Positions 9,709 through 61,159 of a stretch of 64,000 bases of DNA are shown here, in pieces. The stretch covers positions 46,930 through 110,929 of the forward strand of contig JAFCGI010000005.1 in the NCBI GenBank assembly GCA_017608235.1, given 5' to 3'. The first letter of the stretch is position 1; each line of letters starts with the position of its first letter. Origin of the DNA: Candidatus Pacearchaeota archaeon. Lineage in GTDB: Archaea; Nanobdellota; Nanobdellia; UBA10117; JAFCGI01. The notes under the pieces are model-generated. The model had not been told where the DNA came from and did no database searches. It saw only the letters and a list, made by a program, of their open reading frames with translations. A program made the translations under genes and the position numbers.

Positions 9709-9799
9709 GTGTTATTTCTATTAAGTAGATTATTCGAAAGCTTTTTAAATATAACTCTATCTTAACTATTGAATAGTAATAATATATTGTAGAAAACAA

Positions 9800-30015: not shown

Positions 30016-30132
30016 GCCTTGGTGGTGTAGTTTGGTCTATCATATGAGCCTGTCGAAAATATAAATATTTATTTGATATTTATAGTAAGCTCGTGACCCG
30101 GGTTCAAATCCCGGCCAAGGCGTTTGATAAAA
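30016..30132 (+). tRNA. tRNA-Asp (anticodon GTC) with a roughly 32-nt AT-rich intron at the anticodon loop
   Basis: Acceptor GCCTTGG/CCAAGGC+G. D-arm TGGTGTAGTTTGGTCTATCAT is archaeal Asp-like. Anticodon stem TGAGC/GCTCG with loop CTGTCG(A). T-arm CCGGG-TTCAAAT-CCCGG. Confidence 0.7.
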
Positions 30133-43478: not shown

Positions 43479-43588
43479 ATAGTTAATTACTAAAGAATTA
43501 ATAGTTAATTACAGAAGGATTAATAGTTAATTACTAAAGAATTAATAGTTAATTACAGAAGGATTAATAGTTAATTACTAAAGAATTA
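43479..43588. repeat. Intergenic tandem repeat, 22-nt unit x5 (attaatagttaattac + taaaga or agaagg, alternating)
   Basis: Direct reading. Lies between the rps10 3' end and the start of the membrane-protein gene. Confidence 0.85.
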
Positions 43589-43894
43589 CTCGATAACTTG
43601 TATTTCTATATTAACATCTTTTGGAATTGGTACTCTCATAACTAAATGCAAGGCTCGTTCATCAGCAGCTAAATCAATCATACGCTTATGAATTCTCATT
43701 TCGTATCTTTCCCAGGTTTCTGTACCTTCACCATCTGGGGCTTTTCTTACTGGAATTCTAAGGATTTTTGTAGGAAGATTTATTGGACCTGAATAGTTTA
43801 CTCCTACATTCTTAGCAATATCAGTAATCTGATTAGCTATGCTATTCAATTTGTTTATGTCTGTGCTGTAAAGCTTAATTCTTGCTTTTGGCAT
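43586..43894 (-). CDS. rps10: Ribosomal protein S10
   Basis: MPKARIKLYSTDINKLNSIANQITDIAKNVGVNYSGPINLPTKILRIPVRKAPDGEGTETWERYEMRIHKR is typical S10. Inverted relative to tuf. Confidence 0.8.
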   Translation of the reverse strand: MPKARIKLYSTDINKLNSIANQITDIAKNVGVNYSGPINLPTKILRIPVRKAPDGEGTETWERYEMRIHKRMIDLAADERALHLVMRVPIPKDVNIEIQVIE

Positions 43895-44077: not shown

Positions 44078-44207
44078 AGCCCCGAGTGGGAGTCGAACCC
44101 ACGACCTGCGGTTATCTTGCCTTTGCTGGTTTCCTTCACCAGCGTTTCTTTCTTGAAGAAAGGCTATGTTACAAGACCGCCGCTCTACCAGACTGAGCTA
44201 TCGAGGC
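44078..44207 (-). tRNA. tRNA-Thr (anticodon TGT) with a roughly 56-nt intron at the anticodon loop
   Basis: Reverse complement: acceptor GCCTCGA/TCGGGGC+T; D-arm GCTCAGTCTGGTAGAGC; anticodon stem GCGGT/ACCGC with loop CTTGTA|intron|A; T-arm GTGGG-TTCGACT-CCCAC. Confidence 0.65.
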
Positions 44208-44568: not shown

Positions 44569-44865
44569 TTAGTATTTCTCTTTATTTTTCTCATAATACT
44601 CTTTTCTGTATTCTTTGGGTGTTTTAGAAAATCCATTAAATAACAGTTTTAAACTCTTTTTAATCTCTTTAATCCTTGCTAAATGTTCTTTATATTCTTT
44701 ATCAAATCTTTCCGCATCCTCAATTCTTCTTCTTTTGTTAAATTCCTGAAATTCCTTGACTTCTATCTCTTTTTGAGGAAACAATCTAGAACATAAAGCA
44801 CATTTGTATTTAGGTCTAGAAGAAAGCAATACAAGTTTGTATGAGTAGTTTGGACATCGTGGCAT
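44569..44865 (-). CDS. Zinc-ribbon protein, last gene of the island operon
   Basis: CPNYSYK...CALCSR. The start overlaps the stop of the upstream nuclease gene. Confidence 0.45.
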   Translation of the reverse strand: MPRCPNYSYKLVLLSSRPKYKCALCSRLFPQKEIEVKEFQEFNKRRRIEDAERFDKEYKEHLARIKEIKKSLKLLFNGFSKTPKEYRKEYYEKNKEKY

Positions 44866-45893
44866 TATTTCTTCTCCTTTTTCTTTAAAGCTTCTTTATT
44901 TTCTCTCGCATATTTTATATTCTGAAGTTGTCTTTTCCCATTTTCAATGAGTTCATTAAAAGTAACTATTTTAATATGAGGTCTTAATTGAAAATTCCAA
45001 TTTTTTATAAGTCTCTGTTCCCCATCACTTATATTGTAACCCATAACAATTATTCCGGAAGGGGCTTGTATTTTATAAGTGCCCTCTTCAGATAAACCAC
45101 TATACAAATCTGTTCTACGCAAGTAGAGAATCAATTGATTAATCCCTTGTGCTAGTTCATCAGAAATATATAATCTTGAGTCATCTTTTTTCTTGAAAAA
45201 TGGATTAAGATTTGGGCTTTTGAATTCAAAAACTTTATCTTCCCCAATTTCAGTTTTTATGTGAAGATCTACTGCTAATTGTGGATCAACTGCTTTTTCA
45301 GAAGCCTTAACCTCACAATCTATGCCTAATATCCATTTACTTTCCTTAAGTTTCGTTTTTACTAAATGCTCTTCTCTTTTAGTACCCTTACTAATTCTTT
45401 TTACTTCATTTTCAAATTCAGTTAGTTTAGATTCATAATCTTCTATTTTATCAATTACTTCCTTAGCAAGTGTTATCTCAATTTGTTGTTTACTTAAACG
45501 TTCCTCAGCATCCTTGAGTTTTATTTTTGCTTCTACAAGTTCATTGTTTAACAATTCAACTTTTTCTTTATATATTGAAACTTCTTCTGAAACATCTTCT
45601 ATTTGTTTACCCCAAATTTTATATGCGAATCCTTTAACTGTTTTAGAAAACCATTTGAACCATTCTGAGAGATTAATTCTATTAGGAATCCAAAAACCAG
45701 ATTTATGTGTTTTAAAATAAGGTTTTGTTGATGCAGATTGAACTCTTATACCTTCATATCCTTGTGTATTTTTTTCAGAAGAGATTTTTGATTTATAAGT
45801 TCCTTCTTCAAAACTGTCTGATTTAATCTCTTTAATATGCTCTGATTTATAAAAATCATTTGTTCTCTTCTTTTTAGTTTTCTTTTTTGTCAC
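44865..45893 (-). CDS. PD-(D/E)XK-superfamily nuclease with an N-terminal basic/coiled-coil region (Shedu/DUF4263-like or RecB-like fold)
   Basis: In the C-terminal domain: VDLHIK...KVFEFKSP (D...ExK) and QGINQLILYLRR (QxxxY). The N-terminus is a K-rich segment followed by heptad-like coiled coil. Confidence 0.5.
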   Translation of the reverse strand: MTKKKTKKKRTNDFYKSEHIKEIKSDSFEEGTYKSKISSEKNTQGYEGIRVQSASTKPYFKTHKSGFWIPNRINLSEWFKWFSKTVKGFAYKIWGKQIEDVSEEVSIYKEKVELLNNELVEAKIKLKDAEERLSKQQIEITLAKEVIDKIEDYESKLTEFENEVKRISKGTKREEHLVKTKLKESKWILGIDCEVKASEKAVDPQLAVDLHIKTEIGEDKVFEFKSPNLNPFFKKKDDSRLYISDELAQGINQLILYLRRTDLYSGLSEEGTYKIQAPSGIIVMGYNISDGEQRLIKNWNFQLRPHIKIVTFNELIENGKRQLQNIKYARENKEALKKKEKK

Positions 45894-45894
45894 T

Positions 45895-46572
45895 TTATTT
45901 TTCTCCTCTTATTTTACAAAACCCACACTCTTTACTTGCCTTTGGCTCTTTTCCTTGTAAAATTTTAATGGCTTGTTTGAAAACTTTTTCCCCTCTTTTA
46001 GGATCTGTTTTAATTTTAATCAATTTGGTATCAAATATTACTTCTCCTGTTTCTGTAACATGATTAGGATAATAAAACAATAGATAAGTATAGTCTTCTG
46101 TTTGATAACCATTTTCTCTTAATAAGAAATTATAAAGATCCATTTGATTGATATAATGCTCATGAGTATCTTCTTTTAGAGGAAATCCTCTTGTTTTGTA
46201 ATCTAAAACAATTAGTTTCTTTCCTTTCTTTAGAATATTATCTACTGCTCCATGTAATAAAATATTTGATTTTTTGTCTAGTAATTCTATACCCTTAAAA
46301 TTGCTTCTCCAGATTTTTAGTTTTTCTTTATCATTGAATAATTTACATCCATCATTTGCACATTCTTGTTCTTTTAGTTCTGGTGGAAGTTCTCCTTTTT
46401 CCATAAACCTATCAAAATGCTCTTTTAGAACTTTATCCATCCCTGAAGGTAAACTTGGGAATGGTGTGTCTGGTCTTCTTTCTTTTTTAACTAATTGAAG
46501 CCAGAAACATCTAGGACATTCTAGCATTAAATTCAATGAACTTGGTGATATTTTGTATGTTGATTTATTCAT
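45895..46572 (-). CDS. Cas4-like / RecB-family exonuclease with Fe-S cluster cysteines (DUF83 type)
   Basis: N-terminal ISPSSLNLMLECPRCFWL (the Cas4 signature). LHGAVDNI...LIVLDYKT (D, D/ExK), QMDLYNFLL (QxxxY). C-terminal cysteines CGFCK. Confidence 0.65.
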   Translation of the reverse strand: MNKSTYKISPSSLNLMLECPRCFWLQLVKKERRPDTPFPSLPSGMDKVLKEHFDRFMEKGELPPELKEQECANDGCKLFNDKEKLKIWRSNFKGIELLDKKSNILLHGAVDNILKKGKKLIVLDYKTRGFPLKEDTHEHYINQMDLYNFLLRENGYQTEDYTYLLFYYPNHVTETGEVIFDTKLIKIKTDPKRGEKVFKQAIKILQGKEPKASKECGFCKIRGEK

Positions 46573-48893
46573 TTGAATATTATCTCCTTTAATTTTTTAA
46601 TTTCATTTTCATTTAATAGATTTATTCCTTTTGGATTTTGAATTATATCTCCTTTTAATTTAATAAATGGCTTATTTTTTTTATCAAATGTCAATTCTTG
46701 TTTAAAATAGATAACTCCTGAGATAATATCTGTATTTGGATTTGTTTTATGTATTGAATCGTCTTTTCTCGAAGGATATTGATCTATTGTTTTGCCAGTT
46801 TTTTTATCCATAACTAAGGTTAAAGATAAACTTCCAAAGAAGGTATTGATTATTTCATGTTCATCAATAGTTGAACCACTTTTATCTATAACTATAAAAA
46901 TAATATCACTCCTTTTTTTATTTAACATTTCTTTTAGAGTTACATCTGATTTAATCTGTTTTTTAAATTTATTTTTTATTTTTTTAAGAGCTTCATTAGG
47001 CATGGCTACAGCACTATTACTTAATCTTAAATTCTTATTAATTTCAGGTCTTGTAATCTCAAAGTAAATATCTTTATTGAATAAATTTACCTTAAGATCA
47101 AGATTATTGTTTTTTTTATTTGGTGGAAGGGGCTCTATAACCTCAATATGATTATTATCAAACTTATTTATAAAAATAAGTTCACTAAAATAATTCCAAA
47201 ATTTATTTTCATTAAACAAGTTTTGTTTTATATCCTTGACTATATGTTCTTTTTTCTTGAATTTTTCATTTGCTTTTGTCTCAATTATTTTAATGTTCTT
47301 ATTCAATTCATAAAGATAAGCTTTTGGCCAAAATCTACTTCTAACAAAATCTATCTTAAATGCCTTATTTAATTCAGAATCTTTTTCTGAAATTTTAATA
47401 TCTTCAAGAGTTGGTTGTTCATTTTCTCCAAGCCAAATAAGAGGAGTGTATCGCTTTTTGTTTTCTGCTTCTATAATTACCTCTTTTGCAAATTTATACA
47501 AGTTAGTGTATTTTTTGAGATTTTTTTTAATTATATCAAAGTTGTATTTTTCTTTCCTATTTCTCAATTGAGTTAAAAGATTTTCAGCAAAGTTAATTAA
47601 ATAGTCATAATCGTCTTTAGAAAAAGGTTTTTTGTTTTTCCTTTCATTGTATTTATTTTTATTAAACTCGATGAAATTTTTTTCCTTAGATATTTTAATT
47701 AGATTGTCTATAAGTTTAATAATAACATCTTTATTTTTAATATCCTTAAAAATATTTCCAATTAAGACATTATTTAACTCAAAAAATAAATATTTTTCAT
47801 CTTTATTCTTTAGATTAAATTTTAGTATCTGATCCAAAGCATAGCTTATATGGAATTTTGAGAGTGTTTTAAATAAATGAGGTAATGTAACAATATATAA
47901 TTTTGATTTTTTATTTTGGATTCTCTTGTAATTTTCAAGGATATATCTAATAAAAAGTCTATTCTTTTTTACTAATTCCTCAAGTGCCCAGTCAAAATGT
48001 CTTAATTTAAATTCCATATCTTTATTTAACCAATAAATAAACAAATCAGATATTTGTTTATATGGCTGAGGAAACTTCCTTAATACTTCAACGATTTTGT
48101 CTATTATGATATAATCCATATCTTTAGAATATTTAATAAGTTCAAAGATTTGTTTTTGGTTTAATAAGTCTTTATATGTTAACCTATCAAACAATAAATA
48201 AGTAATATTTTTGTCCTTTAGTTTTATTAAATCAAAGAGTTTATTATAAAAATAGTCTTTATTTTTATTAAAAAATATTAAACAAACATTAATGAATTCT
48301 TGCAGTATTTTTTTATCTTGGTTTTTAGATATTTTATCAAAATAAGAATAAGCTTCTTTACTTAGTCTTTGGGATTCATATTTATACAAAATAGCTTTTA
48401 ATATAGAATTAGTTTGTGGATATTCAAGCTTTTTATTTAAAAATTCCTCCAGGATTGAATCATTTTTTACTGAATATCCTCCAAGGATTAAACCAGCCAC
48501 TACCTTAAAATCACTATCTTTAGATTTAGTTATTATCTTCTTATAAAATTGTAGAGCAAATGGTTTATTTTTTCCAATATCTTTTAGTATATTTAGGAAA
48601 GGCCCTTGAGCCATATCTCTTTTTATTTTATTGTTTATTTTTTCTAATAATTCAAGGTATTTATCTGTGTTATCTGCTAACTCATATGTAACAGTAGTAA
48701 TCAATTCAAAATATCCCCAAAAGTCAGAACTAAAGAGAAAATCATCAATTAATTTATATTTATCCTTTTCAGATAGCTTAGATTTATGACTATTGTAAAC
48801 TTTGATTTGTTCTTCAAATTTGTAATATTTACCTTTTAAGTCTTCTTCAAGGCTCATATTCTTGGCACCATCTTCCATTTTTCTTGATTGCAT
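46569..48893 (-). CDS. Large (774 aa) predominantly alpha-helical protein with a distinct C-terminal domain, function unknown; no P-loop found
   Basis: Extremely K/N/I/F/Y-rich and more AT-rich than the neighbouring genes. Start and stop overlap both flanking genes in the operon. Confidence 0.45.
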   Translation of the reverse strand: MQSRKMEDGAKNMSLEEDLKGKYYKFEEQIKVYNSHKSKLSEKDKYKLIDDFLFSSDFWGYFELITTVTYELADNTDKYLELLEKINNKIKRDMAQGPFLNILKDIGKNKPFALQFYKKIITKSKDSDFKVVAGLILGGYSVKNDSILEEFLNKKLEYPQTNSILKAILYKYESQRLSKEAYSYFDKISKNQDKKILQEFINVCLIFFNKNKDYFYNKLFDLIKLKDKNITYLLFDRLTYKDLLNQKQIFELIKYSKDMDYIIIDKIVEVLRKFPQPYKQISDLFIYWLNKDMEFKLRHFDWALEELVKKNRLFIRYILENYKRIQNKKSKLYIVTLPHLFKTLSKFHISYALDQILKFNLKNKDEKYLFFELNNVLIGNIFKDIKNKDVIIKLIDNLIKISKEKNFIEFNKNKYNERKNKKPFSKDDYDYLINFAENLLTQLRNRKEKYNFDIIKKNLKKYTNLYKFAKEVIIEAENKKRYTPLIWLGENEQPTLEDIKISEKDSELNKAFKIDFVRSRFWPKAYLYELNKNIKIIETKANEKFKKKEHIVKDIKQNLFNENKFWNYFSELIFINKFDNNHIEVIEPLPPNKKNNNLDLKVNLFNKDIYFEITRPEINKNLRLSNSAVAMPNEALKKIKNKFKKQIKSDVTLKEMLNKKRSDIIFIVIDKSGSTIDEHEIINTFFGSLSLTLVMDKKTGKTIDQYPSRKDDSIHKTNPNTDIISGVIYFKQELTFDKKNKPFIKLKGDIIQNPKGINLLNENEIKKLKEIIFK

Positions 48894-49567
48894 CGGTATA
48901 AATACCCATTTGGGATTATTTCAAAATTTTTTGTACTATTTTTTTTGCAAATTACAACGTCACATCCATAAATGTATGGACTTCCTGTAAACTGAAAATC
49001 AATCAAAGAGATGTTATTTAAAGTATTAACTGAGTGTCTAATTATTTGTTTAAAATTTCTTTTTAGTTCATAGGATTTTAATTCATTTAATTGAGATAAA
49101 ATATAATTTCCTCTTCGCAAATCATTATTTGAATCAAGACAAGTCTCTTTACCAGATCCTATGAATCCTTTTTCAATAGATTTGATCTCATAGTCTTTTA
49201 TGTTATTGGAAACCATTTTCGAGAAATCAATTTTGTAACACTTAAATGAAGCGATATTAAGTAGAATACAAGAAACATCAATTTTTGAGAGTCGGGGATA
49301 TGTTTTTTTAATGATAGCATATATTTTTTTGAATTGTAGCCTGTTGTTGATATTTGCGTAAAACATATCTTTTATTTTTATTATATTAGAACTATTCCCT
49401 GCAAAACCCAATATCCAATTTTTTCTTATTTCTACTTTTTTTGCAAAATTATGTGGAAAGACTTCATATCCTTCAGTCGCCCGGATAGTATCATGTATAT
49501 CAGTTTCCAACCTATCTGCAACAAGTACCCACGCATTCTTCAATGGAAAGGCAAAAATAGAAGTCAT
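48854..49567 (-). CDS. HslV/proteasome-beta-like N-terminal-nucleophile hydrolase (Thr directly after the initiator Met, no propeptide)
   Basis: [17 protein letters not shown] aligns with HslV [31 protein letters not shown] aligns with HslV [16 protein letters not shown] matches the HslV/proteasome GSGG block. SD GAGGGG lies 11 nt upstream. Confidence 0.55.
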   Translation of the reverse strand: [237 protein letters not shown]

Positions 49568-49634
49568 TTTTCATTAACCCCTCAACAAAATTGTAATTTC
49601 TTCTTTGACCAACCCATATAATTCATGAACCATT

Positions 49635-52340
49635 TTATTTTTTATATTCCCTAAAATTTCTCTCTAATTCTTTAAAAGAGGATGGGTGATATTTATCAAA
49701 ACTCTCTTCGTCCACATAAATAAAGTCATATTTAGCCTTTTTCTGAGACTTGTTTAGATCTTCACACCATTGTTTTAATCTCTGCATTTTTAGTGGAACA
49801 TCTAAGTCTTCCTTACCTTTAGTTTCAATTATGAAGATTTCTTTATCTGATTTTTTAACAATAAAATCTGGATAATACTCTGAAATATTTCCATCTTTAT
49901 TTTTATAATCTATTTTAAAATGGACACCAAAATAATTTTTGACGTAAGATACTATCTCCCCTTCTGGACAATTTTCTAAAAAATTAGCAAATCTTAATTC
50001 TAAATCGCTATCTCCTATAATCTTATTAAAGATGCTTTTTTTAGGAACAAGATATCCTTGCTGTTTTACAACAAAAGACCTACATTGACTGAGTTTTATG
50101 TAATTTCTAATTTCTGCTTCTCCTTTATCTTGAACTGTTAAATCATTAATTTCTTTCTTAAAAGTTTCAATTATTGTTCTTGTTGCTTCTATCTCAGATA
50201 GATTTCTTAAAATATTCAAATCTTCTAAGTTAACCTTTTCTTTGAACAATTCATTTTGAATAAAATTCTTGACTTTTTCATATAGAATGTCATAACCACT
50301 AATTAATCTTAATTCCTTCATTATACTTTGAGTAAAAAAACCAATTGCTCCCTGATAATTGATAATGGCATTGCTGTCTAATACTGTTTTATGGTGTGCT
50401 TCTTCCTTAGAATCTTCTTTGTTCACTACATATTTAAAAACAATTTCTTTCTTTTCTTCTTCTGAAAATTTTTGAATGTTTATTTTTTTATGTTTAAATT
50501 TAGAAACTTCTAACTCAGAAAGATTTTTGTATTCTCTGAATATTCTTGGAGTTAAAACAGGAATTTCTATATCTAATTTTTTAAGATTTTTCTTTTTATT
50601 CTCTTTGTCTATTTCAACAACAAGAGGTGTTTTGGCAGGAGTCCTATCTCCCATTTTTCTTTTTTCCAGTTCAACACCTTCATTTTTTATAGACTCAACA
50701 AATTCCATAAAAGCAGGAGTTCCAACAACACTAACATACTCTTCCACATCTTCTCCCCTGTACATTCTTCTTAATCCTCTTCCTAATGTCTGCTCAGGTA
50801 AGATATTGCTTTTTGCTGAATATGCTCTTAATCCAACAATTGTTGTAACATTTTTTACATCCCATCCTTCTTTTAGCATTAAAACAGAAACAATAGCTTT
50901 GTATTTGCTATCCGGATTATCAATATCATTAGCTGCTTTTCTTAATTCTTTTAGTTCTTTTTCTTTTTTTCCAGTCACTGATTCAGAGATTTCTCCATTA
51001 TTTTTAGTATGAATTACTAAAACAGCATCTTTTAGATCTGAATATGTTTCTTCCAAATATTTTTTCACTTCATCACAATTTTTAGTATCATCAGTCATAA
51101 CAAACAGAACTGCTTTTTTCCCAGCCTTTATCTGCTCATTATAAACTTTCTTCCATTCTTCATATCCAAGATGAATAAAGTCCCTATATTTCTCTGTAAA
51201 GTTTGAACTCTTTATTTCATTTAATTTTGCTCTACTTGCTTCATCTGGAACAAGAGGTTTTTTGACTACATCTTGATATATGGCCTCTACCAAAGGATAA
51301 TCAGAAATAGTTTGAACAAAAATTGCTCCATTAACCTGCTTTGGTGTAGCTGTTGTGTCTACTTGTAAAGATACCTTGCTTCCCTTTTGTAAAAGTTTAT
51401 TATGAATATCTTGAAGTGATTTAAACCAAGCCATTCTTTCATCATGTATATGGTGCGCTTCATCATTTAGAATTACTAACTCGTCAACATCTCTCACAAT
51501 CTCACTTAAATCAACTTTAGATTCATTTGTTGGTCCAACTGGTTTTTCTCCTAAAAAATAATCCATAGTATTATCATCTTCAGAAGAAGGAGTTTTTGTT
51601 CTGCTATCAAAAACTCTGTGGATATTTGTTAAAAATATATTTCCTACACTTTTTACAACGTTTGCATCATCCTGAATATATAAAGATAATTGAAAATCAT
51701 CTTGCCAGTTTTGGCCATCAAAACCATTTGGCGGAAGAACTGGATCTTCATAGAATACTCTCAACCCATCGAAGTCAGCTCTTATTCTGTCTAAGACAAT
51801 AATATTTGGAGTAATTATTAAGAAATTTCTTGCTAAATCTGAATCTTCTTCATATAATTTATGAAAATAACTCCATGCTAAGACTAGACTTAGAACTTTT
51901 GTTTTTCCAGAACCAGTAGCCATCTTGATAACAAATCTTCTCCATGTTTCTGCAAACATTCCGGTAGACACTGCACCAGAACTATCATATCTCATTAAAT
52001 CATGTTTATCCTCAACTTTAGCTACTTCATACAAGTAAATTATTGATTCTATTGCTTCTCTTTGGCAAAAATAATATTTGAATAAAGAAATATTTCCTTC
52101 TGAGTCCTCTATAGGATGGTCGGTTTCAAACCACCATTTCAAAAGAGCCTTGCTTGTTTCACTAGCTCCTTCGTAATTTGATTCTCTCCATTTTTTAACT
52201 TCTTTTCTTATTTTATCCACTAATGGAGGCAGAAGTTTTTGATATCCTTCTTCCCTTAATGCTTCATCAGCAGGAAACCATCTAATTGAAGGGTCTAAAA
52301 TATCATGAGGCGATCTTGGGAAATCTTTGTGAAGAGCCAT
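49635..52340 (-). CDS. res: Type III restriction-modification Res subunit (SF2 helicase plus C-terminal endonuclease)
   Basis: Walker A MATGSGKTKV, DEAH box LNDEAHHI, and the C-terminal nuclease motif YYPDFIVKK...FIIETKGKE. 901 aa. Confidence 0.8.
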   Translation of the reverse strand: MALHKDFPRSPHDILDPSIRWFPADEALREEGYQKLLPPLVDKIRKEVKKWRESNYEGASETSKALLKWWFETDHPIEDSEGNISLFKYYFCQREAIESIIYLYEVAKVEDKHDLMRYDSSGAVSTGMFAETWRRFVIKMATGSGKTKVLSLVLAWSYFHKLYEEDSDLARNFLIITPNIIVLDRIRADFDGLRVFYEDPVLPPNGFDGQNWQDDFQLSLYIQDDANVVKSVGNIFLTNIHRVFDSRTKTPSSEDDNTMDYFLGEKPVGPTNESKVDLSEIVRDVDELVILNDEAHHIHDERMAWFKSLQDIHNKLLQKGSKVSLQVDTTATPKQVNGAIFVQTISDYPLVEAIYQDVVKKPLVPDEASRAKLNEIKSSNFTEKYRDFIHLGYEEWKKVYNEQIKAGKKAVLFVMTDDTKNCDEVKKYLEETYSDLKDAVLVIHTKNNGEISESVTGKKEKELKELRKAANDIDNPDSKYKAIVSVLMLKEGWDVKNVTTIVGLRAYSAKSNILPEQTLGRGLRRMYRGEDVEEYVSVVGTPAFMEFVESIKNEGVELEKRKMGDRTPAKTPLVVEIDKENKKKNLKKLDIEIPVLTPRIFREYKNLSELEVSKFKHKKINIQKFSEEEKKEIVFKYVVNKEDSKEEAHHKTVLDSNAIINYQGAIGFFTQSIMKELRLISGYDILYEKVKNFIQNELFKEKVNLEDLNILRNLSEIEATRTIIETFKKEINDLTVQDKGEAEIRNYIKLSQCRSFVVKQQGYLVPKKSIFNKIIGDSDLELRFANFLENCPEGEIVSYVKNYFGVHFKIDYKNKDGNISEYYPDFIVKKSDKEIFIIETKGKEDLDVPLKMQRLKQWCEDLNKSQKKAKYDFIYVDEESFDKYHPSSFKELERNFREYKK

Positions 52341-54508
52341 TATTTATTTCCCCCTTTTAATTCTATAACTTTCGTTGTATCGTTTCCAAAAATATCAACA
52401 ACTTTAATAGCAATTTTTCTTTTTCCAGAAATTTTCCTGAAGGGAGTTTTTAATTCTAATTCTCTATTCTTCTTTGTTCTAAATGACTGCCATTCATTTT
52501 CAAAGATATAATCTCCTGTCCATTTTTCTTCGTATTCTTTTTCAAAATCCAGCTTTCCTGTTTGTTTCTTTTGTTTTTCTATTTTGATTATTTCTTTTTT
52601 GCTTTCAAAATCAAAATCTACTGCCCAATAATCAATCCAGTCAGTCCATTTTTTAGTTAAAACATCCTGTGTAACAATTCCATTTTTATCTTTTGATACC
52701 TTGATTATATTTCCATTCTCTACTACAATTTTATTGCTTCCATTTTTTAAACTGGCTTCAACATGTTTTATTGAATCCTGATTATAGAAAACAGAAAAAT
52801 CAGCTAATTCAATAGCCACGCCATCTTTAATATAATGTGGTGTAACTTCAATATATGAAACATCAGTAAATACAACTTGATTCTTTTCAACTGCTCTTTT
52901 ATCGAATACTTCTCTTGGGATATGTTTTAGTGCTAAATCAACACCTTTGGCTTTTGCTTCTTCTTGAATATGGGGAAATAATCCCATTTCAAATTCAAAT
53001 GCAAGAATGTCAACTTTAGTTATTTTGTTTTTAATTGCTTCCTCGATAGCCTCTTCAATAAATAATCTTCCCACTGGTAAATTTATAGGACCAACTGCAA
53101 CTAATCTATTTAATTTCTTTCCTGAAAAGGTATTATATCCTGTAACTCCCTCTGCTCTGTAAGCATGAAGGATTAGTTTAACAAAATCTTTTTCCTTTTT
53201 TGCTATTTGTTTTTGTTTTTCTTCATCCCTTAAATTTGAATTTACTCCAACATAATGTTGTCTTTCATATTTTCCAAGATTTAATATCTCAAATGCCCTG
53301 AAATCTTTTCCATCTTTTTTTAATTGTCTTTGAACATCAATCATCCTTTTTCTTGTTGTGTGAATTGAGAACTTTCCTAAATCAGAACCAATCCATTTTC
53401 TTCCTAATTTTTCTGCAACTGCTAAGGTAGTTCCTGAACCACAGAAGAAATCGCAGACAATGTCGCCTTCATTTGATGATGCTTTTATTATTCTTTTCAT
53501 CAATTTTTCAGGTTTTTGTGTAGGATAGTCTAATAATTCGCTTACTATTCTTCCAACTGGTGAAATATCTACCCACCAATCTTCTAATTGTTTTCCTTCT
53601 TCCTCAAGAGCTCTCAGTTTCTCTTCACTAGTTTCAGTTGTTCTAAATCCTAAACCTCCCTTACCATGTATGCCAGATTTATGTTTGATTCTTTGGATGT
53701 TAAAATTAGTATTCTCAGATTTAGCATAGAAAAGGATAGTATCATGTTTTCTTGTAAACCCTTTTTTATTTTTTAATGGAGAACTGTAACACCAAATAAT
53801 TTCATTCCTAAAATTCTGTTTTCCAAACACTTCATCCAACAGCAACCTCATATATCCAGAGACTCTCCAATCACAATGAACATAAATACTTCCATCAGGA
53901 GCAAGTAAGTCTCTCATTAGCATTAACCTTTCATACATCATTGCAATAAAACTATCTGCTCCCTTGCCCCACGTATCTCTGTAAGCCAATTCTTCCAAAA
54001 CATTCGGTTGCTTTGTAAATTCATCATCTCCAATATTTATCTTCATAGAGAAATCAGCACCAACATCAAATGGTGGATCAATATAAATTAATTTAATTCC
54101 TCCTTGTTTTTCAATCTCTTCTCTTAATGAACCATTTTTCAAACTTGAGAGAATTAATTTGTTATCTCCCCAAATAAGCTTATTAGTCCATCCTTTTAAT
54201 TGTCTCCCTCTTGTATCTGTTTCAAAATCAATTAAGCTAACTTGTTTTCCTCCCCCTAAACCTTCTTTTCTTGGTTCATCCACTTGTTCAATAACTTGAA
54301 AAGGAAGAACGACATTAGTAACATCTCTAGATTTTCCGTTCCAAACTAATTCAACTTCCCTTTTATCTCCAAATAATAAAAATCTATATTCTTCTGGTAA
54401 GGGAACTCCCTTTTTTAAGAAACTTGTTATATCTCTAATTTCATTGTCAGATAAGACTATTTTGGTTTTTGATTCAAATTTTGATTTAACTTGTTTCTTT
54501 TTAGCCAT
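52340..54508 (-). CDS. mod: Type III restriction-modification Mod subunit (beta-class N6-adenine/N4-cytosine DNA methyltransferase)
   Basis: Motif IV DPPF (IYIDPPFDV) lies upstream of the YPTQKP block and motif I FFCGSGTT. Its stop overlaps the res start. Confidence 0.8.
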   Translation of the reverse strand: MAKKKQVKSKFESKTKIVLSDNEIRDITSFLKKGVPLPEEYRFLLFGDKREVELVWNGKSRDVTNVVLPFQVIEQVDEPRKEGLGGGKQVSLIDFETDTRGRQLKGWTNKLIWGDNKLILSSLKNGSLREEIEKQGGIKLIYIDPPFDVGADFSMKINIGDDEFTKQPNVLEELAYRDTWGKGADSFIAMMYERLMLMRDLLAPDGSIYVHCDWRVSGYMRLLLDEVFGKQNFRNEIIWCYSSPLKNKKGFTRKHDTILFYAKSENTNFNIQRIKHKSGIHGKGGLGFRTTETSEEKLRALEEEGKQLEDWWVDISPVGRIVSELLDYPTQKPEKLMKRIIKASSNEGDIVCDFFCGSGTTLAVAEKLGRKWIGSDLGKFSIHTTRKRMIDVQRQLKKDGKDFRAFEILNLGKYERQHYVGVNSNLRDEEKQKQIAKKEKDFVKLILHAYRAEGVTGYNTFSGKKLNRLVAVGPINLPVGRLFIEEAIEEAIKNKITKVDILAFEFEMGLFPHIQEEAKAKGVDLALKHIPREVFDKRAVEKNQVVFTDVSYIEVTPHYIKDGVAIELADFSVFYNQDSIKHVEASLKNGSNKIVVENGNIIKVSKDKNGIVTQDVLTKKWTDWIDYWAVDFDFESKKEIIKIEKQKKQTGKLDFEKEYEEKWTGDYIFENEWQSFRTKKNRELELKTPFRKISGKRKIAIKVVDIFGNDTTKVIELKGGNK

Positions 54509-54755
54509 TTTTCATCTCTTTAACAGCTTCTTCAGGTCCTTTTAGTTTGTAAAGTCTTATTCTGGAATCTTGAGGATCTAGTCTAGCTTCTAACCAGCCA
54601 TATTTTTTAAGGTCAGAAATGCACAGGCTTACGACCCTCTCATCCTTCTCTTTAAGGGCTTCTATGGCCTGTTTATGGGTAAATTCTTCATTTCTAAATT
54701 TATTCCAAAGTGTTGAATATCTTTTCATAATCCATCGTGGAAGCGGTTCTATCAT
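54501..54755 (-). CDS. Small winged-helix-like protein upstream of and overlapping mod; possible regulator (controller-like)
   Basis: MIEPLPRWIMKRYSTLWNKF...LDPQDSRIRLYKLKG. Start placed at the internal Met; the longer track ORF N-terminus looks spurious. Confidence 0.35.
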   Translation of the reverse strand: MIEPLPRWIMKRYSTLWNKFRNEEFTHKQAIEALKEKDERVVSLCISDLKKYGWLEARLDPQDSRIRLYKLKGPEEAVKEMKNG

Positions 54756-54949
54756 ATTAAGTCCCTCATGTGCATCACATAAGTAATATGTAGTCCTATT
54801 TAAATATATTGTTTTGCATTTTAAGCCAGAAATAAAGTGTATTCTACAGAATAACAATGTTTAAATAGTAGTTATGCTTATTACATAAGTATTATGTATA
54901 TAAAATAAGTATCAAGAGAGACTCTCCGCAAAGATCATCTCTCCTGGTA

Positions 54950-56526
54950 ATGGAGTCCGCGATGAACTCCACAATAGAAAGAATAGAAAAGGAACTTAAT
55001 AAAACTTTTGAGTCTGTTAGTGAGAAATGGATTAAAACCTCTTCTGTTCTTAAAAAATTGAACTTACAATTAATAGAACAAAGACAATCTAAATTCAATC
55101 CAGAAAGCTTAATTAAATTATATCTTTACAGAAGAATAAAAGGCATCCATTATTATGAAAAGTTAATAGAACATTTAGAAAATAATGAAACTGATTCTTA
55201 TGATCTTGGATTTTCAAATGGAAATAATAACAAGTTAGAATTTCCAACAAAAAGAGCATTTAATAAATTCTTCAAAAATAAAATTGATGATAATCTCAAA
55301 TTACAATTAGATAATCTTACTAAAAATATTCTAAGAATAGCAACTCAAAAAGGAATAGTCTTAGATTTAGAATTAGTCAATAAAGCAATAAAAGATAAGA
55401 AAGATAAAAAGAGAGAGAGAAAAGAAAAGCATTTCATGAAGCCACTAAATTGGTAAAGAAATTAGTCTATCCTCAAATTGATATTAAAATTAAAGAGAAT
55501 GGAAAATTTACAACTAAGGATTTATTGGATGTTTTAGTTCATATTGCTTATTCTCATGATTTTACTACAAACGGCTCTTCTACATTCCAGGAATTATATC
55601 CTGACTTAAAAGCTCCTTCTGGAGATTTAATGTTATATCATTTTTCTAAATTGCAATCAGTAGATAAAATAAAAGATATGTTTATTTCAATATTTGATGT
55701 TATTTTTAACTTTGCTAAACAGAATTACAAGCTGTTAAATAGAAGAAAAATAGACATTGCGTTTGATGTCCACAAAATCCCCTATTATGGCAATAAGAAT
55801 GATTTTTATGTAACAGAAGGAAAACATGAAAGAGGAACAACTCACTTCTATCAGTTCTTAACATGCTCAATAGTCGTTGCTGGGCAGAGATTTAGTATTG
55901 ATGCTATTCCTATTCATAAATTTGATAGTATTGAAAATTTAGTAGATCAAAGTTTAGAAAGGGTTAAACAAAAAATTCATATCAATAAAGCATATCTTGA
56001 TAGAGGTTTTGATAAACCAAAAGTAATCAACGTTATCAAAGCTCATAAAGTAAAGTTTATCATGCCAAAAGTTAGAAGTGAAACTGTAAAGGCATGGATG
56101 AGAAAATCTGAGGAATGCAAGGCGAGAGTTATTGAAAACTTTGAAATTGGTAAAGGAGAGAATAAGGCTATTGTGAACTTAATCCTTGTAGATGATGAAG
56201 AAGGGATAAAGAGAGCTTTCATTACTAATTTTCACATTCCTGAACAACTATCACATTATCTTTATAATTGGTATTCAAAAAGATGGGGAATTGAAACAGG
56301 GTACGGGCAGTTTGACCATGATTTTAAAGCAAAAACCACTACTAAGAATTATCACATTAGATTATTCTATTTCTTATTTTCAGTATGTTTGTATAATCTT
56401 TGGGTCTTGGTAAATATTTGTGTTTCTTTATCTCTTCATGGTAGATTGTCAGAAAAGCCAATAATTACATCTAAGTTATTTGCAGTTGTTCTTTACAAAG
56501 TTGCTTATGAAGATCCTCCAACGTGA
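54950..56526 (+). mobile_element. IS4-family (DDE_Tnp_1) transposase gene, split into two overlapping ORFs (54950..55456 and 55450..56526) by a frameshift in an A-rich tract. Terminal inverted repeats not resolved
   Basis: DDE residues in IAFDVH, AYLDRGF and the signature YSKRWGIETGY. Both frames are open across the agaaagataaaaagagagagagaaaagaaaag tract. Confidence 0.6.
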
Positions 56527-56714: not shown

Positions 56715-57689
56715 TTAATATTCTAAGGTTTTTTTAAAAATATCAAATACTCTTTCCAAGTCTTTATGATTTGCTTTATCTCTTAGCTCAATCCTAGCTG
56801 AAGCCTTAATCATGGATATTATTGACTCTATTGTTTTGGGAGTTACCTTATATAACAATGAATGTTCTTTAGATTTAAGAGTTGTGGAAAAATCTTTTAT
56901 TAGGTCTAAAAACTGATTTGGAATTTCTACCTTTATTTGATTTGCATGATTAATATATTCTCTAATAAAATCCATATCTGCTTGTTTTGGCTTTTGTTTT
57001 TCAGACATAACTATCTTTTCTGCTATGTCTGCAAATTGTTCTAAAGAGGCATCCCTAATAATAAATGCTAAATTAAAATCTGATAGTTTTGTATAAGAAG
57101 GTATTTGTGACTTAATAATATGTATAGAATAATCTTCAATATTCTTTTTTGCATCTATAACTTTTGGTAGATTTTTTGAAGATATTTTAGATAATGAATC
57201 TAATATACTGGTTTTTCCAGTTCCAGAATTTCCAAATAATAGCATGTTTAGTGAATCCTCTGTGAATAATTGAAGCATGCATGCTTGCTTAACTTCTCTA
57301 AGTCCTACTATATTAGAAGCAATATATTGTGGAATTATATTCCAAGCTCTTTCTTTAAACTCTTTGAATTTTTCTTTAAGATATTTTCTTTCTATCTCTT
57401 GATTTAATATTGTTAGATCTTTTTCTTGCGATTCTATTTTTGGAATTATATTTTTTCCAGAAATTAGGAAAGAGAAATCCTTTTTCTTTCGAACTAATTT
57501 AGCTTTTTTTTGCTTGATTTTTGTTTTTATAAATGAGATTTGATCTTTGCTTAGATATTCTGATAAGAAATTTAGATCTGTTTTTTCTTCTTTAGTTAAA
57601 GGTCTTAATCTAAGAAATAAATCAATAGTATTATTTAGACTATTTTCTATTATTTGAATTGTACCTTCCTTAGCAGTTTTCTTTGCCAT
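56715..57689 (-). CDS. Mini-MCM-like AAA+ ATPase (MCM helicase core homolog, 324 aa)
   Basis: IVGLREVKQACMLQLF...NMLLFGNSGTGKTSIL parallels the MCM IYGHEDVKKA..LLVGDPGTAKSQ region. Walker A GNSGTGKT. Lies 20 nt from the tRNA-Met 3' end. Confidence 0.5.
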   Translation of the reverse strand: MAKKTAKEGTIQIIENSLNNTIDLFLRLRPLTKEEKTDLNFLSEYLSKDQISFIKTKIKQKKAKLVRKKKDFSFLISGKNIIPKIESQEKDLTILNQEIERKYLKEKFKEFKERAWNIIPQYIASNIVGLREVKQACMLQLFTEDSLNMLLFGNSGTGKTSILDSLSKISSKNLPKVIDAKKNIEDYSIHIIKSQIPSYTKLSDFNLAFIIRDASLEQFADIAEKIVMSEKQKPKQADMDFIREYINHANQIKVEIPNQFLDLIKDFSTTLKSKEHSLLYKVTPKTIESIISMIKASARIELRDKANHKDLERVFDIFKKTLEY

Positions 57690-57708
57690 TCTCTAAAAAA
57701 ATAGTAAA

Positions 57709-57823
57709 TGCCGAAGGAGGGATTTGAACCCTCGACTTCCAGCTTACTTACGCAGTAAGCATACAGAAAACAACTTTTCTGCGATATGAGACTGGCACTC
57801 TAGCCAGACTGAGTTACTTCGGC
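57709..57823 (-). tRNA. tRNA-Met, elongator type (anticodon CAT; an Ile2-type cannot be excluded), with a roughly 40-nt intron at the anticodon loop
   Basis: Reverse complement: acceptor GCCGAAG/CTTCGGC+A; D-arm ACTCAGTCTGGCTAGAGT; anticodon stem CCAGT/GCTGG with loop CTCATA|intron|A; T-arm GAGGG-TTCAAAT-CCCTC. Confidence 0.65.
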
Positions 57824-58262: not shown

Positions 58263-58397
58263 TGGACCGGTCGGGATTCGAACCCGAGGCCTCTCCATAG
58301 CAATAAATAAGTATTTAACTTAAATATTCATGCCAAGGAAGCGATCTATTGTCCTGCATTGTCTAATGACATAGCAACCGGACTGATCTACCGGCCC
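58263..58397 (-). tRNA. tRNA, isotype unresolved. The precursor is about 135 nt with apparently more than one intron, including one in the D-loop
   Basis: Reverse complement: acceptor GGGCCGG/CCGGTCC+A; T-arm TCGGG-TTCGAAT-CCCGA; D-stem GATC...GATC. An internal TTGCTATG is repeated twice. Confidence 0.45.
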
Positions 58398-58665: not shown

Positions 58666-58765
58666 AGTTTCACCTCAATTTATATAATAAAAATTAGGAA
58701 CTTATCCTTTAAAAATCTAATGAATATCTCTTTAATTTTTAAAGAAATGTATAAAGAATGATAAA

Positions 58766-58840
58766 TGGGCCCGACAGGATTCGAACCCGCGACCTATCGG
58801 TTAAGAGCCGATCGCTCTGACCAGGCTGAGCTACGAGCCC
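58766..58840 (-). tRNA. tRNA-Lys (anticodon CTT)
   Basis: Reverse complement reads GGGCTCG-TA-GCTCAGCCTGGTCAGAGC-G-ATCGG-CTCTTAA-CCGAT-AGGTC-GCGGG-TTCGAAT-CCTGT-CGGGCCC-A. Confidence 0.75.
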
Positions 58841-58876
58841 ATAAGTCAGAAGTAAAATTTGTAATTAAAAATGTTT

Positions 58877-59773
58877 CTAAATCTCTTTTAAAAATTCTGA
58901 AATAGTTTTTTTATCTAAACTGATTAATGGATAAAATATAGGAATTTTTGAAACTTTCAAAGTGTTTTTTATATTTGTGGTTCCGAGAATAATTGCTTTT
59001 GCATTATATTTCTTGGCAGCTTGTTCTGCAGCTAAAAGTAAGTCTTTGGATTTTATTACTAAAGGTTTAAGTTTCGAACTTGGACTAAATTTCTCAAGAA
59101 GTTTTATATTTTTTAGAAATTCTTTTTCAGAAGTTTCTGAAGTTTTAATGTGCAAAGGAATGATATTAGCTCCTCTTCTTAGCATAAGCCAGGCTGCAAC
59201 CAAGTCTTCCTTTTTTGAGGAAATTAAACAGATTACTTTCCCAGAAACTCCTACAGGTAATCCTTCATGAGCTCTGATTGTCTCAGAAAATAGATGCGCT
59301 TGGTCATCAATTATTTCTATTCCTATTTTTAGACTAGGATTCTTTAATTTTACTGGAGCCTTTGTGTTTTTCTGAATGAATGCTCCAATTTCTCTATCTA
59401 ATTCTAAAGAAGTTTGTTTTAGAGTTTTTGTTACTCTTTTAGATTTTATTGCAAATGTCTTTTTGGAATTTAATTTATTTTGTTTTGCAATCTTTAGGGC
59501 TGTTTTTTTGATATCATTAAGATCAGACTTACAAATTACTGCAGGAGTTATTAAAACAAGTCCAAAAATATTTTTTAGAACTTTAATTGCTTTCTTAGTA
59601 TTTTTTGTTTTGATATAGATTCTAGAATGTTTTTTCTCAAGAGAGAATTCTAAATTATTTTGCTTTAGAGCATTATCTATATTTCTAAGAAGCTGATTTT
59701 CGAATTGGGACCTTGTTCTTTTGCTTTTTAGCATCAATTCTGCAAACTTAAGAATTATTAGTTTATTATCCAT
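58877..59773 (-). CDS. ThiI-like protein: THUMP domain plus a truncated, degenerate PP-loop domain (tRNA 4-thiouridine synthase homolog, possibly inactive)
   Basis: TFAIKSKRVTKTLKQTSLELDREIGAFI matches the THUMP/ThiI region. GKVICLISSKKEDLVAAWLMLRRG aligns with the ThiI PP-loop, but the SGGxDS motif is replaced by SSKKED. Only 298 aa. Confidence 0.5.
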   Translation of the reverse strand: MDNKLIILKFAELMLKSKRTRSQFENQLLRNIDNALKQNNLEFSLEKKHSRIYIKTKNTKKAIKVLKNIFGLVLITPAVICKSDLNDIKKTALKIAKQNKLNSKKTFAIKSKRVTKTLKQTSLELDREIGAFIQKNTKAPVKLKNPSLKIGIEIIDDQAHLFSETIRAHEGLPVGVSGKVICLISSKKEDLVAAWLMLRRGANIIPLHIKTSETSEKEFLKNIKLLEKFSPSSKLKPLVIKSKDLLLAAEQAAKKYNAKAIILGTTNIKNTLKVSKIPIFYPLISLDKKTISEFLKEI

Positions 59774-61022: not shown

Positions 61023-61145
61023 GCGGTCGTAGTGTAGTGGTATCACTCAAGCTTGCCATAATCCTTCTTAAGAAGAAGCGTCGGCAGAAGAAAAGACTGT
61101 TGGTTGCAAAGAGCTTGCGACTCGGGTTCAAATCCCGGCGACCGC
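61023..61145 (+). tRNA. tRNA-Gly (anticodon GCC) with a roughly 50-nt intron at the anticodon loop
   Basis: Acceptor GCGGTCG/CGACCGC+A. D-arm GTGTAGTGGTATCAC. Anticodon stem CAAGC/GCTTG with loop TTGCCA|intron|A. T-arm TCGGG-TTCAAAT-CCCGG. Confidence 0.65.
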
Positions 61146-61159
61146 ATTTAATTAAAAAT

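What the first reader, a model, noticed from the sequence alone, without database searches (positions are those of the whole stretch)
56715..57823. Mini-MCM-like AAA+ ATPase gene 20 nt from the 3' end of an intron-containing tRNA-Met
The 324-aa protein aligns to the MCM AAA+ core (Walker A plus the upstream (I/V)xGxxxxKxA block) but lacks the N-terminal OB/zinc domains. Such truncated MCMs are typically encoded by archaeal plasmids and proviruses. Its position at a tRNA 3' end supports an integrative origin for the island.
Basis: partly seen in the sequence, partly recalled or inferred. Interest (0 to 1): 0.5.

Follow-up and report, generated by a model that had tools for sequence, protein, structure and literature searches.

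The report
Catalytically dead chromosomal mini-MCM gene
The gene is a real MCM-derived protein, but it has lost the parts needed to burn ATP, and it sits in a chromosomal position beside tRNA-Met that is conserved in related DPANN archaea, so it does not mark an integrated mobile element.

Summary
ORF 56715-57689 (-) encodes 324 aa with an MCM-type pre-Walker-A block, a Walker A motif and an MCM lid. It has no OB or zinc domain. It starts 19 nt after an intron-containing tRNA(CAU) at 57709-57823.

The interpretation only half holds. The protein belongs to a family of about 104 cluster representatives (370-445 aa) found in Woesearchaeota/Nanoarchaeia genomes. These "mini-MCMs" pair an orphan N-terminal domain with an MCM AAA+ core and lid. 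Intact members keep all five catalytic motifs. The window copy is 78 residues shorter in the core. It has lost Walker B, both DNA hairpins and sensor 1, and carries Arg-finger R->D and sensor-2 R->K.

It is not a lone wreck. At least 15-20 divergent intact ORFs form a dead clade in which the core has decayed but the N-domain, linker and lid stay conserved.

The order tRNA-Ala(GGC), tRNA-Met(CAU), mini-MCM recurs in eight loci among housekeeping genes, with both active and dead copies. The IS and defence island downstream occur in none of them. No integrase, att repeat or mobile-element relative was found.

Best reading: a vertically inherited, non-catalytic MCM derivative. Its role is unknown.

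The parts
56715..57689 (-). 324-aa core-eroded, catalytically dead mini-MCM ORF (stop codon 56715-56717)
57432..57689 (-). Family-specific N-terminal domain (residues 1-86): three helices plus a beta-hairpin. It looks winged-helix-like from predicted secondary structure only. No Pfam or PDB sequence match.
   Evidence: (N-domain HMM, E 6e-30)
57252..57431 (-). Helical linker and MCM pre-AAA helices (residues 87-146), including ERAWNIIPQYIA and IVGLREVKQA
57057..57251 (-). Remnant of the AAA+ alpha/beta core (residues 147-211): three predicted strands, Walker A GNSGTGKT at nt 57210-57233, Arg-finger position D204. It is 78 residues shorter than in active P0005 between the Walker A Lys and the Arg-finger position.
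56718..57056 (-). MCM lid domain (residues 212-324) with sensor-2 Arg replaced by K285; the KASARIELRDK...KDLERVF block is conserved
57690..57708 (-). 19-nt spacer TTTACTATTTTTTTAGAGA between the tRNA 3' end and the ATG. It contains a 7-T run. It is too short for a standard archaeal promoter placed upstream of the ATG (inference).
57709..57823 (-). tRNA(CAU) (Met, or possibly Ile2) with a 40-nt intron at 37/38 (intron 57745-57784)
58263..58397 (-). tRNA-Ala(GGC) with two inferred introns (29 nt in the D-loop, 33 nt in the anticodon loop). Together with tRNA-Met and the mini-MCM it completes the conserved gene order.
   Evidence: synteny
54950..56526 (+). IS-type transposase in two overlapping ORFs (DDE_Tnp_1), immediately 3' of the gene at the synteny breakpoint. 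It is context, not part of the gene.

Best explanation
The ORF is a vertically inherited chromosomal gene of a Woesearchaeota/Nanoarchaeia-specific 'mini-MCM' family, built as an orphan N-terminal domain, MCM pre-AAA helices, an AAA+ core and an MCM lid.

The window copy belongs to a sub-lineage in which the ATPase and translocase machinery was first inactivated and then progressively deleted. It keeps a P-loop, three core strands (predicted), the N-domain, the linker and the lid. It has lost Walker B, the helix-2 insert (h2i), the pre-sensor-1 hairpin (PS1BH), sensor 1, the arginine finger and sensor 2. It therefore cannot hydrolyse ATP or translocate on DNA the way MCM does. This is shown at the sequence level.

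The N-domain, linker and lid stay conserved across many divergent, intact dead copies while the core decays. From this I infer that the protein is retained for a non-catalytic job carried out through those surfaces. It would act as a binding or scaffolding (pseudo-ATPase) subunit, possibly for DNA or for a replication or repair partner. This step is inference.

The conserved position directly behind tRNA-Met (gaps of 3-51 nt in five loci) suggests the gene is expressed by read-through from the tRNA transcription unit, with tRNA 3' processing creating the mRNA 5' end. This is also inference and untested.

The IS and the defence island downstream are later, unrelated additions at a rearrangement breakpoint.
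For: Family and motifs: 32 of 35 members first collected have GDPGTGKT, IDELN, xANP, SRFH and (T/S)PR intact. The exceptions are the window protein, P0002 and P0003. In the window protein, 33 of 76 near-invariant family positions are deleted and 12 of the remaining 43 are changed, including D154N, R204D, H206N and R285K. Active members keep 87-100% of these positions. The distance from the Walker A Lys to the Arg-finger position is 45 residues, against 123 in P0005.

Not a lone pseudogene: an exhaustive profile search finds other short members whose match splits in two (P0074 334 aa, P0083 305, P0096 288, P0090 362, P0081 364, P0093 357). Alignment A4 shows they share the motif losses but keep the N-domain, ERAWxxIPQYIAP, FADIAEKI and KASARxELR..KDLxRVF. 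More such members appear. Of 104 family representatives, 41 have lost at least one motif. An NJ tree places the window protein inside a 15-member dead clade that is sister to the active clade A (bootstrap 76% with P0002/P0003).

Region-wise identity, dead vs dead: N-domain 0.41, linker 0.42, core 0.27, lid 0.42. Active vs active: 0.53, 0.58, 0.72, 0.58.

Synteny: tRNA-Met(CAU) lies on the same strand directly upstream in L002 (40 nt), L004 (38 nt), L056 (51 nt), L054 (3 nt) and the window (19 nt), with insertions in L001, L007 and L053. Flanking genes are MetRS, u81, tRNA-Lys(CUU), ThiI, tRNA-Thr(GGU), c5, c20, RpoH and RpoB. The window holds the other half of the ancestral locus at 23.9-32 kb.
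Against: No close relative (>50% identity) of the window protein exists in the databases, so dN/dS could not be measured. Continued selection is inferred only from conservation patterns and intact ORFs.

The dead clade could be partly a long-branch artefact of distance trees. Inactivation may have happened several times.

The 7-T run in the 19-nt spacer could terminate tRNA transcripts, so this copy may be poorly expressed.

No partner, DNA-binding activity or expression data exist. The winged-helix label for the N-domain rests on predicted secondary structure only.

Whether the same genome carries a canonical MCM or an active mini-MCM could not be checked, because only 64 kb are available.
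Confidence: 0.7

Rival explanations
1. Decaying pseudogene: an orthologue of the active mini-MCM that lost function and is being deleted piece by piece. The open frame persists only by chance or because the loss is recent.
For: The core deletions and the substitutions at every catalytic position outside the deletion. An IS and a rearrangement breakpoint lie directly 3' of the gene. The oligo-T run sits between the tRNA and the ATG. The window protein is a singleton cluster.
Against: The frame is intact over 324 codons in 28% GC DNA. Several separate deletions (two or three gap blocks, depending on the alignment) all preserved the frame. At least 15-20 clusters below 50% identity carry intact dead ORFs with the same conserved N-domain and lid. 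The loss of constraint is confined to the core. The AF2 model is compact and confident.
Confidence: 0.15
2. One reading: a replication helicase gene of a plasmid or provirus integrated at the 3' end of tRNA-Met, marking one end of a mobile island that also holds the IS, R-M and nuclease genes.
For: Extra, divergent MCM copies in archaea often come from integrated elements and plasmids (PMC3914693, citing Krupovic et al. 2010). The gene abuts a tRNA 3' end. A variable, lower-GC defence island with an IS lies next to it.
Against: The same tRNA-Ala, tRNA-Met, mini-MCM order is present in 8 loci with housekeeping flanks and no island genes. There is no integrase in 44-58 kb. No direct repeat of the tRNA was found. 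Phage, plasmid, IMG/VR and BFVD hits cover only the generic AAA+ core at 25-34% identity. The protein cannot act as a helicase.
Confidence: 0.04
3. Ancient domestication: the whole mini-MCM family descends from a mobile-element MCM that integrated at tRNA-Met in an ancestor of this Woesearchaeal clade and was later fixed. The tRNA adjacency would then be a fossil attachment site. This is compatible with the best explanation for the present-day gene.
For: The tRNA-adjacent position is conserved in clade A. The domain architecture (no OB/Zn) resembles that of mobile-element mini-MCMs (general knowledge, PMC3914693). The family is equally distant (about 30-32% identity) from cellular and mobile-element MCMs.
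Against: The other family clades (L005, L008-L023) are not next to tRNAs and also sit among housekeeping genes. No mobile element with the N-domain is known. No remnant element genes are seen.
Confidence: 0.11

Closest known systems
Canonical archaeal MCM replicative helicase (e.g. SsoMCM, PfMCM; Pfam PF00493 + PF17855)
   Same: The pre-AAA helices, Walker A, strand order and lid are homologous. The top PDB fold hits are all MCMs. Active family members keep Walker B, h2i, PS1BH, sensor 1, the Arg finger and sensor 2.
   Different: There is no N-terminal A/Zn/OB domain and no C-terminal winged helix; an orphan domain of about 90-130 aa takes the N-terminal position. The window copy additionally lacks every catalytic and DNA-translocation element except the P-loop. 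Its NCBIfam MCM score is 51 against a cut-off of 940.
Mobile-element mini-MCMs (pTN2-type Thermococcales plasmids, TKV-type integrated elements, haloarchaeal and methanogen virus MCMs; Bacillus cereus prophage MCM, PMC2715239)
   Same: An MCM AAA+ module without the canonical OB/zinc N-terminal domain.
   Different: Those are active helicases encoded in plasmids, viruses or integrated elements. This family is chromosomal, syntenic with housekeeping genes, and has its own N-domain that was not found in any phage, plasmid or viral collection searched. The window copy is catalytically dead.
[not shown]
   Same: MCM-derived proteins that have lost catalytic motifs yet are retained. This is the closest functional analogy for a non-catalytic MCM derivative.
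   Different: They have different domain make-up and keep an MCM-like N-terminal domain. There is no specific sequence relationship. Here the alpha/beta core itself is physically eroded to three predicted strands, and the loss forms a graded series within one family.
ChlI/BchI, MoxR/RavA AAA+ ATPases
   Same: They belong to the same AAA+ superclade (helix-2 insert). Weak Pfam Mg_chelatase hits occur in active members.

Membership tests
MCM family (Pfam PF00493 MCM P-loop + PF17855 MCM lid) | Profile match above the gathering score | tested here: met
   MCM_lid 39.9 bits (cut-off 27.4). MCM P-loop 27.6 bits (cut-off 23.3), but only profile positions 3-84 of 224.
MCM family | Fold closest to solved MCM AAA+ modules | tested here: met
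   [not shown]
MCM family | Walker A GxxGxGK[ST] | tested here: met
   GNSGTGKT, residues 153-160.
MCM family | Walker B (IDEFDKM; IDELN in this family) | tested here: not met
   Deleted.
MCM family | Helix-2 insert and pre-sensor-1 beta-hairpin (DNA-translocation elements) | tested here: not met
   The segment is absent. The AF2 model has 3 core strands, against the full set in P0005.
MCM family | Sensor 1 Asn, arginine finger (SRF), sensor 2 Arg in the lid | tested here: not met
   Sensor 1 is deleted, the Arg finger is D204 (SDFN), and sensor 2 is K285 (TPK).
MCM family | N-terminal A / zinc / OB-fold domain | tested here: not met
   The N-terminal 90 residues are helices plus one hairpin, with no Pfam or PDB match. 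NCBIfam MCM matches only residues 200-323.
Woesearchaeota/Nanoarchaeia chromosomal mini-MCM family (defined here) | Family-specific N-terminal domain followed by the ERAWxxIPQ(Y/F)IAP pre-AAA block and an MCM lid | tested here: met
   N-domain HMM E 6e-30; alignments A1, A4 and A5.
Woesearchaeota/Nanoarchaeia chromosomal mini-MCM family, clade A | Conserved position downstream of tRNA-Ala(GGC) and tRNA-Met(CAU), near MetRS, u81 and tRNA-Lys(CUU) | tested here: met
   Window. Relatives.
Dead (pseudo-ATPase) sub-lineage of that family | Loss of Walker B, sensor 1, Arg finger and sensor 2, with a conserved N-domain and lid | tested here: met
Dead (pseudo-ATPase) sub-lineage of that family | Purifying selection on the retained domains (dN/dS < 1) | not testable with these tools
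   The nearest relative is 46% identical, so synonymous sites are saturated.
Integrated mobile element / provirus carrying an MCM | Integrase, att direct repeats derived from the tRNA, other element genes, absence from related chromosomes | tested here: not met
   No integrase. No tRNA-derived repeat. The gene is present at the same site in 7 other genomes. Mobile-element collections lack this architecture.
ChlI/MoxR-type AAA+ | Best profile match to Mg_chelatase, AAA_3 or AAA_5 | tested here: not met
   Mg_chelatase 12.4 bits (cut-off 20.3) in the window protein; 36 vs 122 bits in P0005.
Archaeal intron-containing tRNA | tRNA covariance-model match, plus an insert at 37/38 flanked by a bulge-helix-bulge | tested here: met
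   Rfam 56.6 bits. Read by hand, the stretch is 4 nt (CUCA) + 3-nt bulge (UAU) + CGCAG ... CUGCG + 4 nt (UAAG) + 3-nt bulge (UAA), with one C-A mismatch in the central helix. The exons match the intronless L053 tRNA-Met.

The most novel reading that the evidence does not exclude
DPANN archaea of the Woesearchaeota/Nanoarchaeia lineage carry a so far undescribed chromosomal family of MCM-derived proteins. In this family an active mini-helicase has repeatedly, or once anciently, turned into a conserved pseudo-ATPase. The AAA+ core of that pseudo-ATPase is whittled down to a three-strand stub, while an orphan N-domain and the lid are kept. The protein would act as a non-catalytic subunit or regulator of the replication or repair machinery, as an archaeal analogue of MCMBP. 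It would be expressed as the 3' part of a tRNA-Met transcript, with tRNA processing generating a near-leaderless mRNA.
Probability: 0.3. Interest if true: 0.65.

Novelty: new variant of a known kind. Interest (0 to 1): 0.5.

Why it matters
First, it corrects a plausible but wrong inference. A truncated MCM sitting next to a tRNA is not automatically a sign of an integrated element. Here the tRNA linkage is older than the divergence of genomes whose proteins share only 30-45% identity.

Second, it exposes a graded natural series within one family: active, then point-inactivated at full length, then partly deleted, then a three-strand stub. This shows how an AAA+ motor can be converted into a non-enzymatic protein. 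It gives a concrete candidate for an accessory replication or repair factor in genome-reduced DPANN archaea, which are otherwise poorly understood.

Third, the 3-51 nt tRNA-to-start-codon spacing offers a testable case of tRNA-linked mRNA expression in archaea.

Tried and rejected
- **att sites.** I searched 43.8-58.5 kb for direct repeats of the tRNA-Met 3' half. Only generic T-arm similarity among tRNAs turned up.
- **Integrase or other element genes.** Pfam and PADLOC on all ORFs from 42.9 to 64 kb found none. They found only type III R-M, Shedu-like, Cas4-like and weak OloA-like proteins, plus an IS.
- **Second IS copy.** I looked for a second copy that could explain an inversion; there is none in the window. 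No clear terminal inverted repeats were found for the IS.
- **tRNA calling.** Default ARAGORN misses the tRNA. ARAGORN with introns calls it Thr(CGU) using a non-canonical splice. I rejected this because the BHB geometry and the intronless L053 orthologue both give CAU.
- **PADLOC PtuA hit.** The window protein scores 24.5 bits over residues 133-251. This is generic P-loop similarity and I rejected it.
- **ChlI/MoxR assignment.** Rejected.
- **Source genome.** Looking up the window protein's own contig and name returned nothing on record and no names.
- **N-domain identity.** A profile search against PDB sequences and Pfam gave only chance-level hits.
- **Remnant of the deleted core.** tblastn found no trace in other frames and no second MCM in the window.
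- **Literature.** Five full-text searches and one targeted read found no description of a DPANN mini-MCM or a dead MCM family. This is only absence of evidence.
- **First tree script.** It timed out and I replaced it with my own NJ code.

Full report
**1. What is in the sequence**

The minus-strand ORF 56715..57689 encodes 324 aa. Rfam places a tRNA at 57709..57823 on the same strand (56.6 bits) with a 42-nt insert in the anticodon loop. Default ARAGORN misses it.

Reading the sequence, the stretch after the anticodon stem fits an hBHBh' motif: 4 nt, a 3-nt bulge, CGCAG...CUGCG, 4 nt, a 3-nt bulge. This gives a 40-nt intron at 37/38 and the loop CUCAUAA, so the anticodon is CAU. The exons are nearly identical to an intronless tRNA-Met(CAU) in a related locus (L053). 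ARAGORN's intron mode proposes Thr(CGU) from a non-canonical splice, and I reject that call. The start codon lies 19 nt after the tRNA's discriminator base.

Pfam gives the MCM lid (residues 240-321) and the first third of the MCM P-loop domain (residues 106-173, profile positions 3-84 of 224). Both are above their gathering scores, and Mg_chelatase is far below its own.

**2. The protein is a deletion derivative of a larger family**

A search of 5.8 billion proteins returned proteins of 380-550 aa from DPANN/Woesearchaeota metagenome bins, at most 46% identical, all carrying a complete MCM P-loop domain.

The alignments show a family architecture of a specific N-terminal domain, then ERAWxxIPQ(Y/F)IAP and IxGxxxxKxA, then the AAA+ core and the lid. 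Thirty-two of 35 members have all five motifs intact:
- GDPGTGKT (Walker A)
- IDELN (Walker B)
- xANP (sensor 1)
- SRFH (Arg finger)
- (T/S)PR (sensor 2)

The window protein keeps only Walker A (GNSGTGKT). The distance from the Walker A Lys to the Arg-finger position is 45 residues, against 123 in P0005. This removes Walker B, the helix-2 insert, the pre-sensor-1 hairpin and sensor 1. The Arg finger is D204 and sensor 2 is K285. Of 76 near-invariant family positions, 33 are deleted and 12 of the other 43 are changed. Active members keep 87-100% of them.

**3. It is one of many dead copies, not an isolated wreck**

An exhaustive profile search of 1.84 billion representatives recovered about 100 family representatives. 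Among them were other short proteins whose match breaks just after Walker A: P0074 (334 aa), P0083 (305), P0096 (288), P0090 (362), P0081 (364) and P0093 (357). A further search added P0190, P0192, P0193, P0191 and P0189.

Aligned together, they share the loss of Walker B, sensor 1, Arg finger and sensor 2, and show different extents of core erosion. P0002 and P0003 are still full length but point-inactivated. All of them keep the N-domain, the pre-AAA block, FADIAEKI and KASARxELR..KDLxRVF.

Of 104 representatives with the N-domain, 41 have lost at least one motif. In a neighbour-joining tree, the window protein lies inside a 15-member dead clade that is sister to the active clade A. A separate dead clade of 27 also exists. 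Distance methods can group fast-evolving sequences artificially, so monophyly is provisional.

Region-wise identity shows where constraint was lost. Among dead proteins the values are N-domain 0.41, linker 0.42, core 0.27 and lid 0.42. Among active ones they are 0.53, 0.58, 0.72 and 0.58. In active proteins the core is the most conserved region, and in dead ones it is the least conserved. Together with intact reading frames in many clusters below 50% identity, this argues for retention of a non-catalytic function.

**4. The tRNA adjacency is ancestral synteny**

Active orthologues sit 40 nt (L002) and 38 nt (L004) downstream of tRNA-Met(CAU), which is itself preceded by tRNA-Ala(GGC). L007 has tRNA-Ala, an intron-containing tRNA(CAU), and then the gene after about 0.7 kb. 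L001 has tRNA-Lys(CUU) and tRNA-Met, with two genes inserted before the mini-MCM.

Dead members show the same pattern:
- L056: tRNA-Ala, tRNA-Met, 51 nt, gene.
- L054: tRNA-Lys, tRNA-Ala, tRNA-Met, then an ATG only 3 nt later.
- L053: tRNA-Met, a 113-aa ORF, gene.

In the window, the odd tRNA-like sequence at 58263-58397 becomes a perfect tRNA-Ala(GGC) once two inferred introns are removed, and tRNA-Lys(CUU) follows at 58765-58841. The flanks are housekeeping genes: MetRS, a conserved 81-aa protein, ThiI, tRNA-Thr(GGU), two conserved ORFs, RpoH/RpoB, or S10/EF-1a.

The window holds the 'downstream half' of the ancestral locus (tRNA-Thr(GGU), c5, c20, RpoH, RpoB) at 23.9-32 kb on the other strand. 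A rearrangement breakpoint therefore lies exactly 3' of the gene, where the IS (54950-56526) and the defence island sit. The island holds type III Mod/Res, an OloA-like protein, a Cas4-like nuclease and a Shedu-like nuclease. None of these genes occurs in any related locus.

There is no integrase and no tRNA-derived repeat. Members of other family clades are not next to tRNAs and are also embedded among housekeeping genes.

**5. No link to mobile elements**

tblastn against 50,697 phage and 72,556 plasmid records, a scan of IMG/VR, and a BFVD fold search found only the generic AAA+ core of viral and plasmid MCMs, at 25-34% identity or TM 0.64 or less. None found the N-domain architecture.

The literature premise that extra archaeal MCMs often derive from integrated elements is sound (PMC3914693), but it does not apply to this gene as it stands today. 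An ancient domestication event cannot be excluded.

**6. Mechanism**

Shown at the sequence level: the protein lacks the residues and elements that MCM needs for ATP hydrolysis and DNA translocation.

Inferred:
- It is kept for a binding or scaffolding role through the N-domain, linker and lid. Its P-loop is dispensable in relatives and may or may not bind nucleotide.
- The very short tRNA-to-ATG spacers (3-51 nt) suggest expression by read-through from the tRNA unit, with tRNA 3' processing creating the mRNA 5' end. In the window copy, a 7-T run in the spacer might instead limit expression.

The closest functional analogies are inactive MCM paralogues such as M. kandleri MCM2 (3f8t) and eukaryotic MCMBP (from my own knowledge).

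**7. Verdict**

The MCM identity is supported, but the 'ATPase' label and the integrative origin are not.

The finding is a new variant of a known kind: an MCM-derived pseudo-ATPase sub-lineage of an apparently undescribed DPANN mini-MCM family. I found no paper describing it. Interest is moderate.

The main open points are whether the dead genes are under selection (dN/dS), which other MCMs co-occur in the same genomes, and what the N-domain binds.

Noticed in passing
window 58263-58397 (-): A tRNA-like sequence that both default ARAGORN and the Rfam gathering threshold miss. Removing a 29-nt insert in the D-loop and a 33-nt insert in the anticodon loop gives a clean 73-nt tRNA-Ala(GGC). It occupies the position held by intronless tRNA-Ala(GGC) in related loci.
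   Followed up: partly
window 44569-54857: A defence island absent from all related loci. It contains type III R-M (Mod 52340-54508, Res 49635-52340), a 774-aa weak OloA-like protein (46569-48893), a Cas4-like PD-(D/E)XK nuclease (45895-46572), a Shedu SduA-like nuclease (44865-45893) and unannotated ORFs of 237, 118 and 98 aa. GC falls to 0.23-0.26 at 46-49 kb. No integrase is present.
   Followed up: partly
window 54950-56526 (+): An IS-type transposase split into two overlapping ORFs (168 aa and 358 aa, DDE_Tnp_1), possibly joined by a frameshift. It is a single copy in the window and I found no clear terminal inverted repeats. It lies exactly at the synteny breakpoint 3' of the mini-MCM.
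   Followed up: partly
window 27681-27784, 30016-30122, 44078-44207, 61023-61146: Four more tRNAs of 104-130 nt found only by Rfam, presumably containing introns. Intron-bearing tRNAs are unusually frequent in this genome. Their anticodons were not determined.
   Followed up: no
window 41632-42894 (+) and 43586-43894 (-): EF-1alpha and ribosomal protein S10 are convergent here, whereas they lie on the same strand in L053. Together with the displaced block from tRNA-Thr(GGU) to RpoB at 23.9-32 kb, this points to several inversions in this chromosome region.
   Followed up: partly
window 58877-59773 (-): The ThiI-like protein is only 298 aa (ThiI_fer, THUMP and part of the PP-loop domain), against 406 aa in L001. 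L053 has a similarly short 270-aa version.
   Followed up: no
L054 9959-10035: In a Nanoarchaeia genome, the likely ATG of a dead mini-MCM lies 3 nt after the tRNA-Met 3' end. The database gene call starts inside the tRNA. This arrangement leaves no room for a separate promoter.
   Followed up: partly
family-wide (P0033...P0076): A second, separate clade of 27 full-length (about 350-390 aa) mini-MCM representatives has also lost most catalytic motifs. Inactivation therefore affects about 40% of the family's 50%-identity clusters.
   Followed up: partly
P0002 / P0003 (L034-L037): The point-inactivated full-length relatives carry an extra N-terminal extension of 110-150 aa made of KTxEFAK-type repeats.
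   Followed up: no
L004 about 9773-9880: By eye, the tRNA-Ala upstream of tRNA-Met appears to carry an insert of about 37 nt in the T-arm region. ARAGORN does not call it.
   Followed up: no
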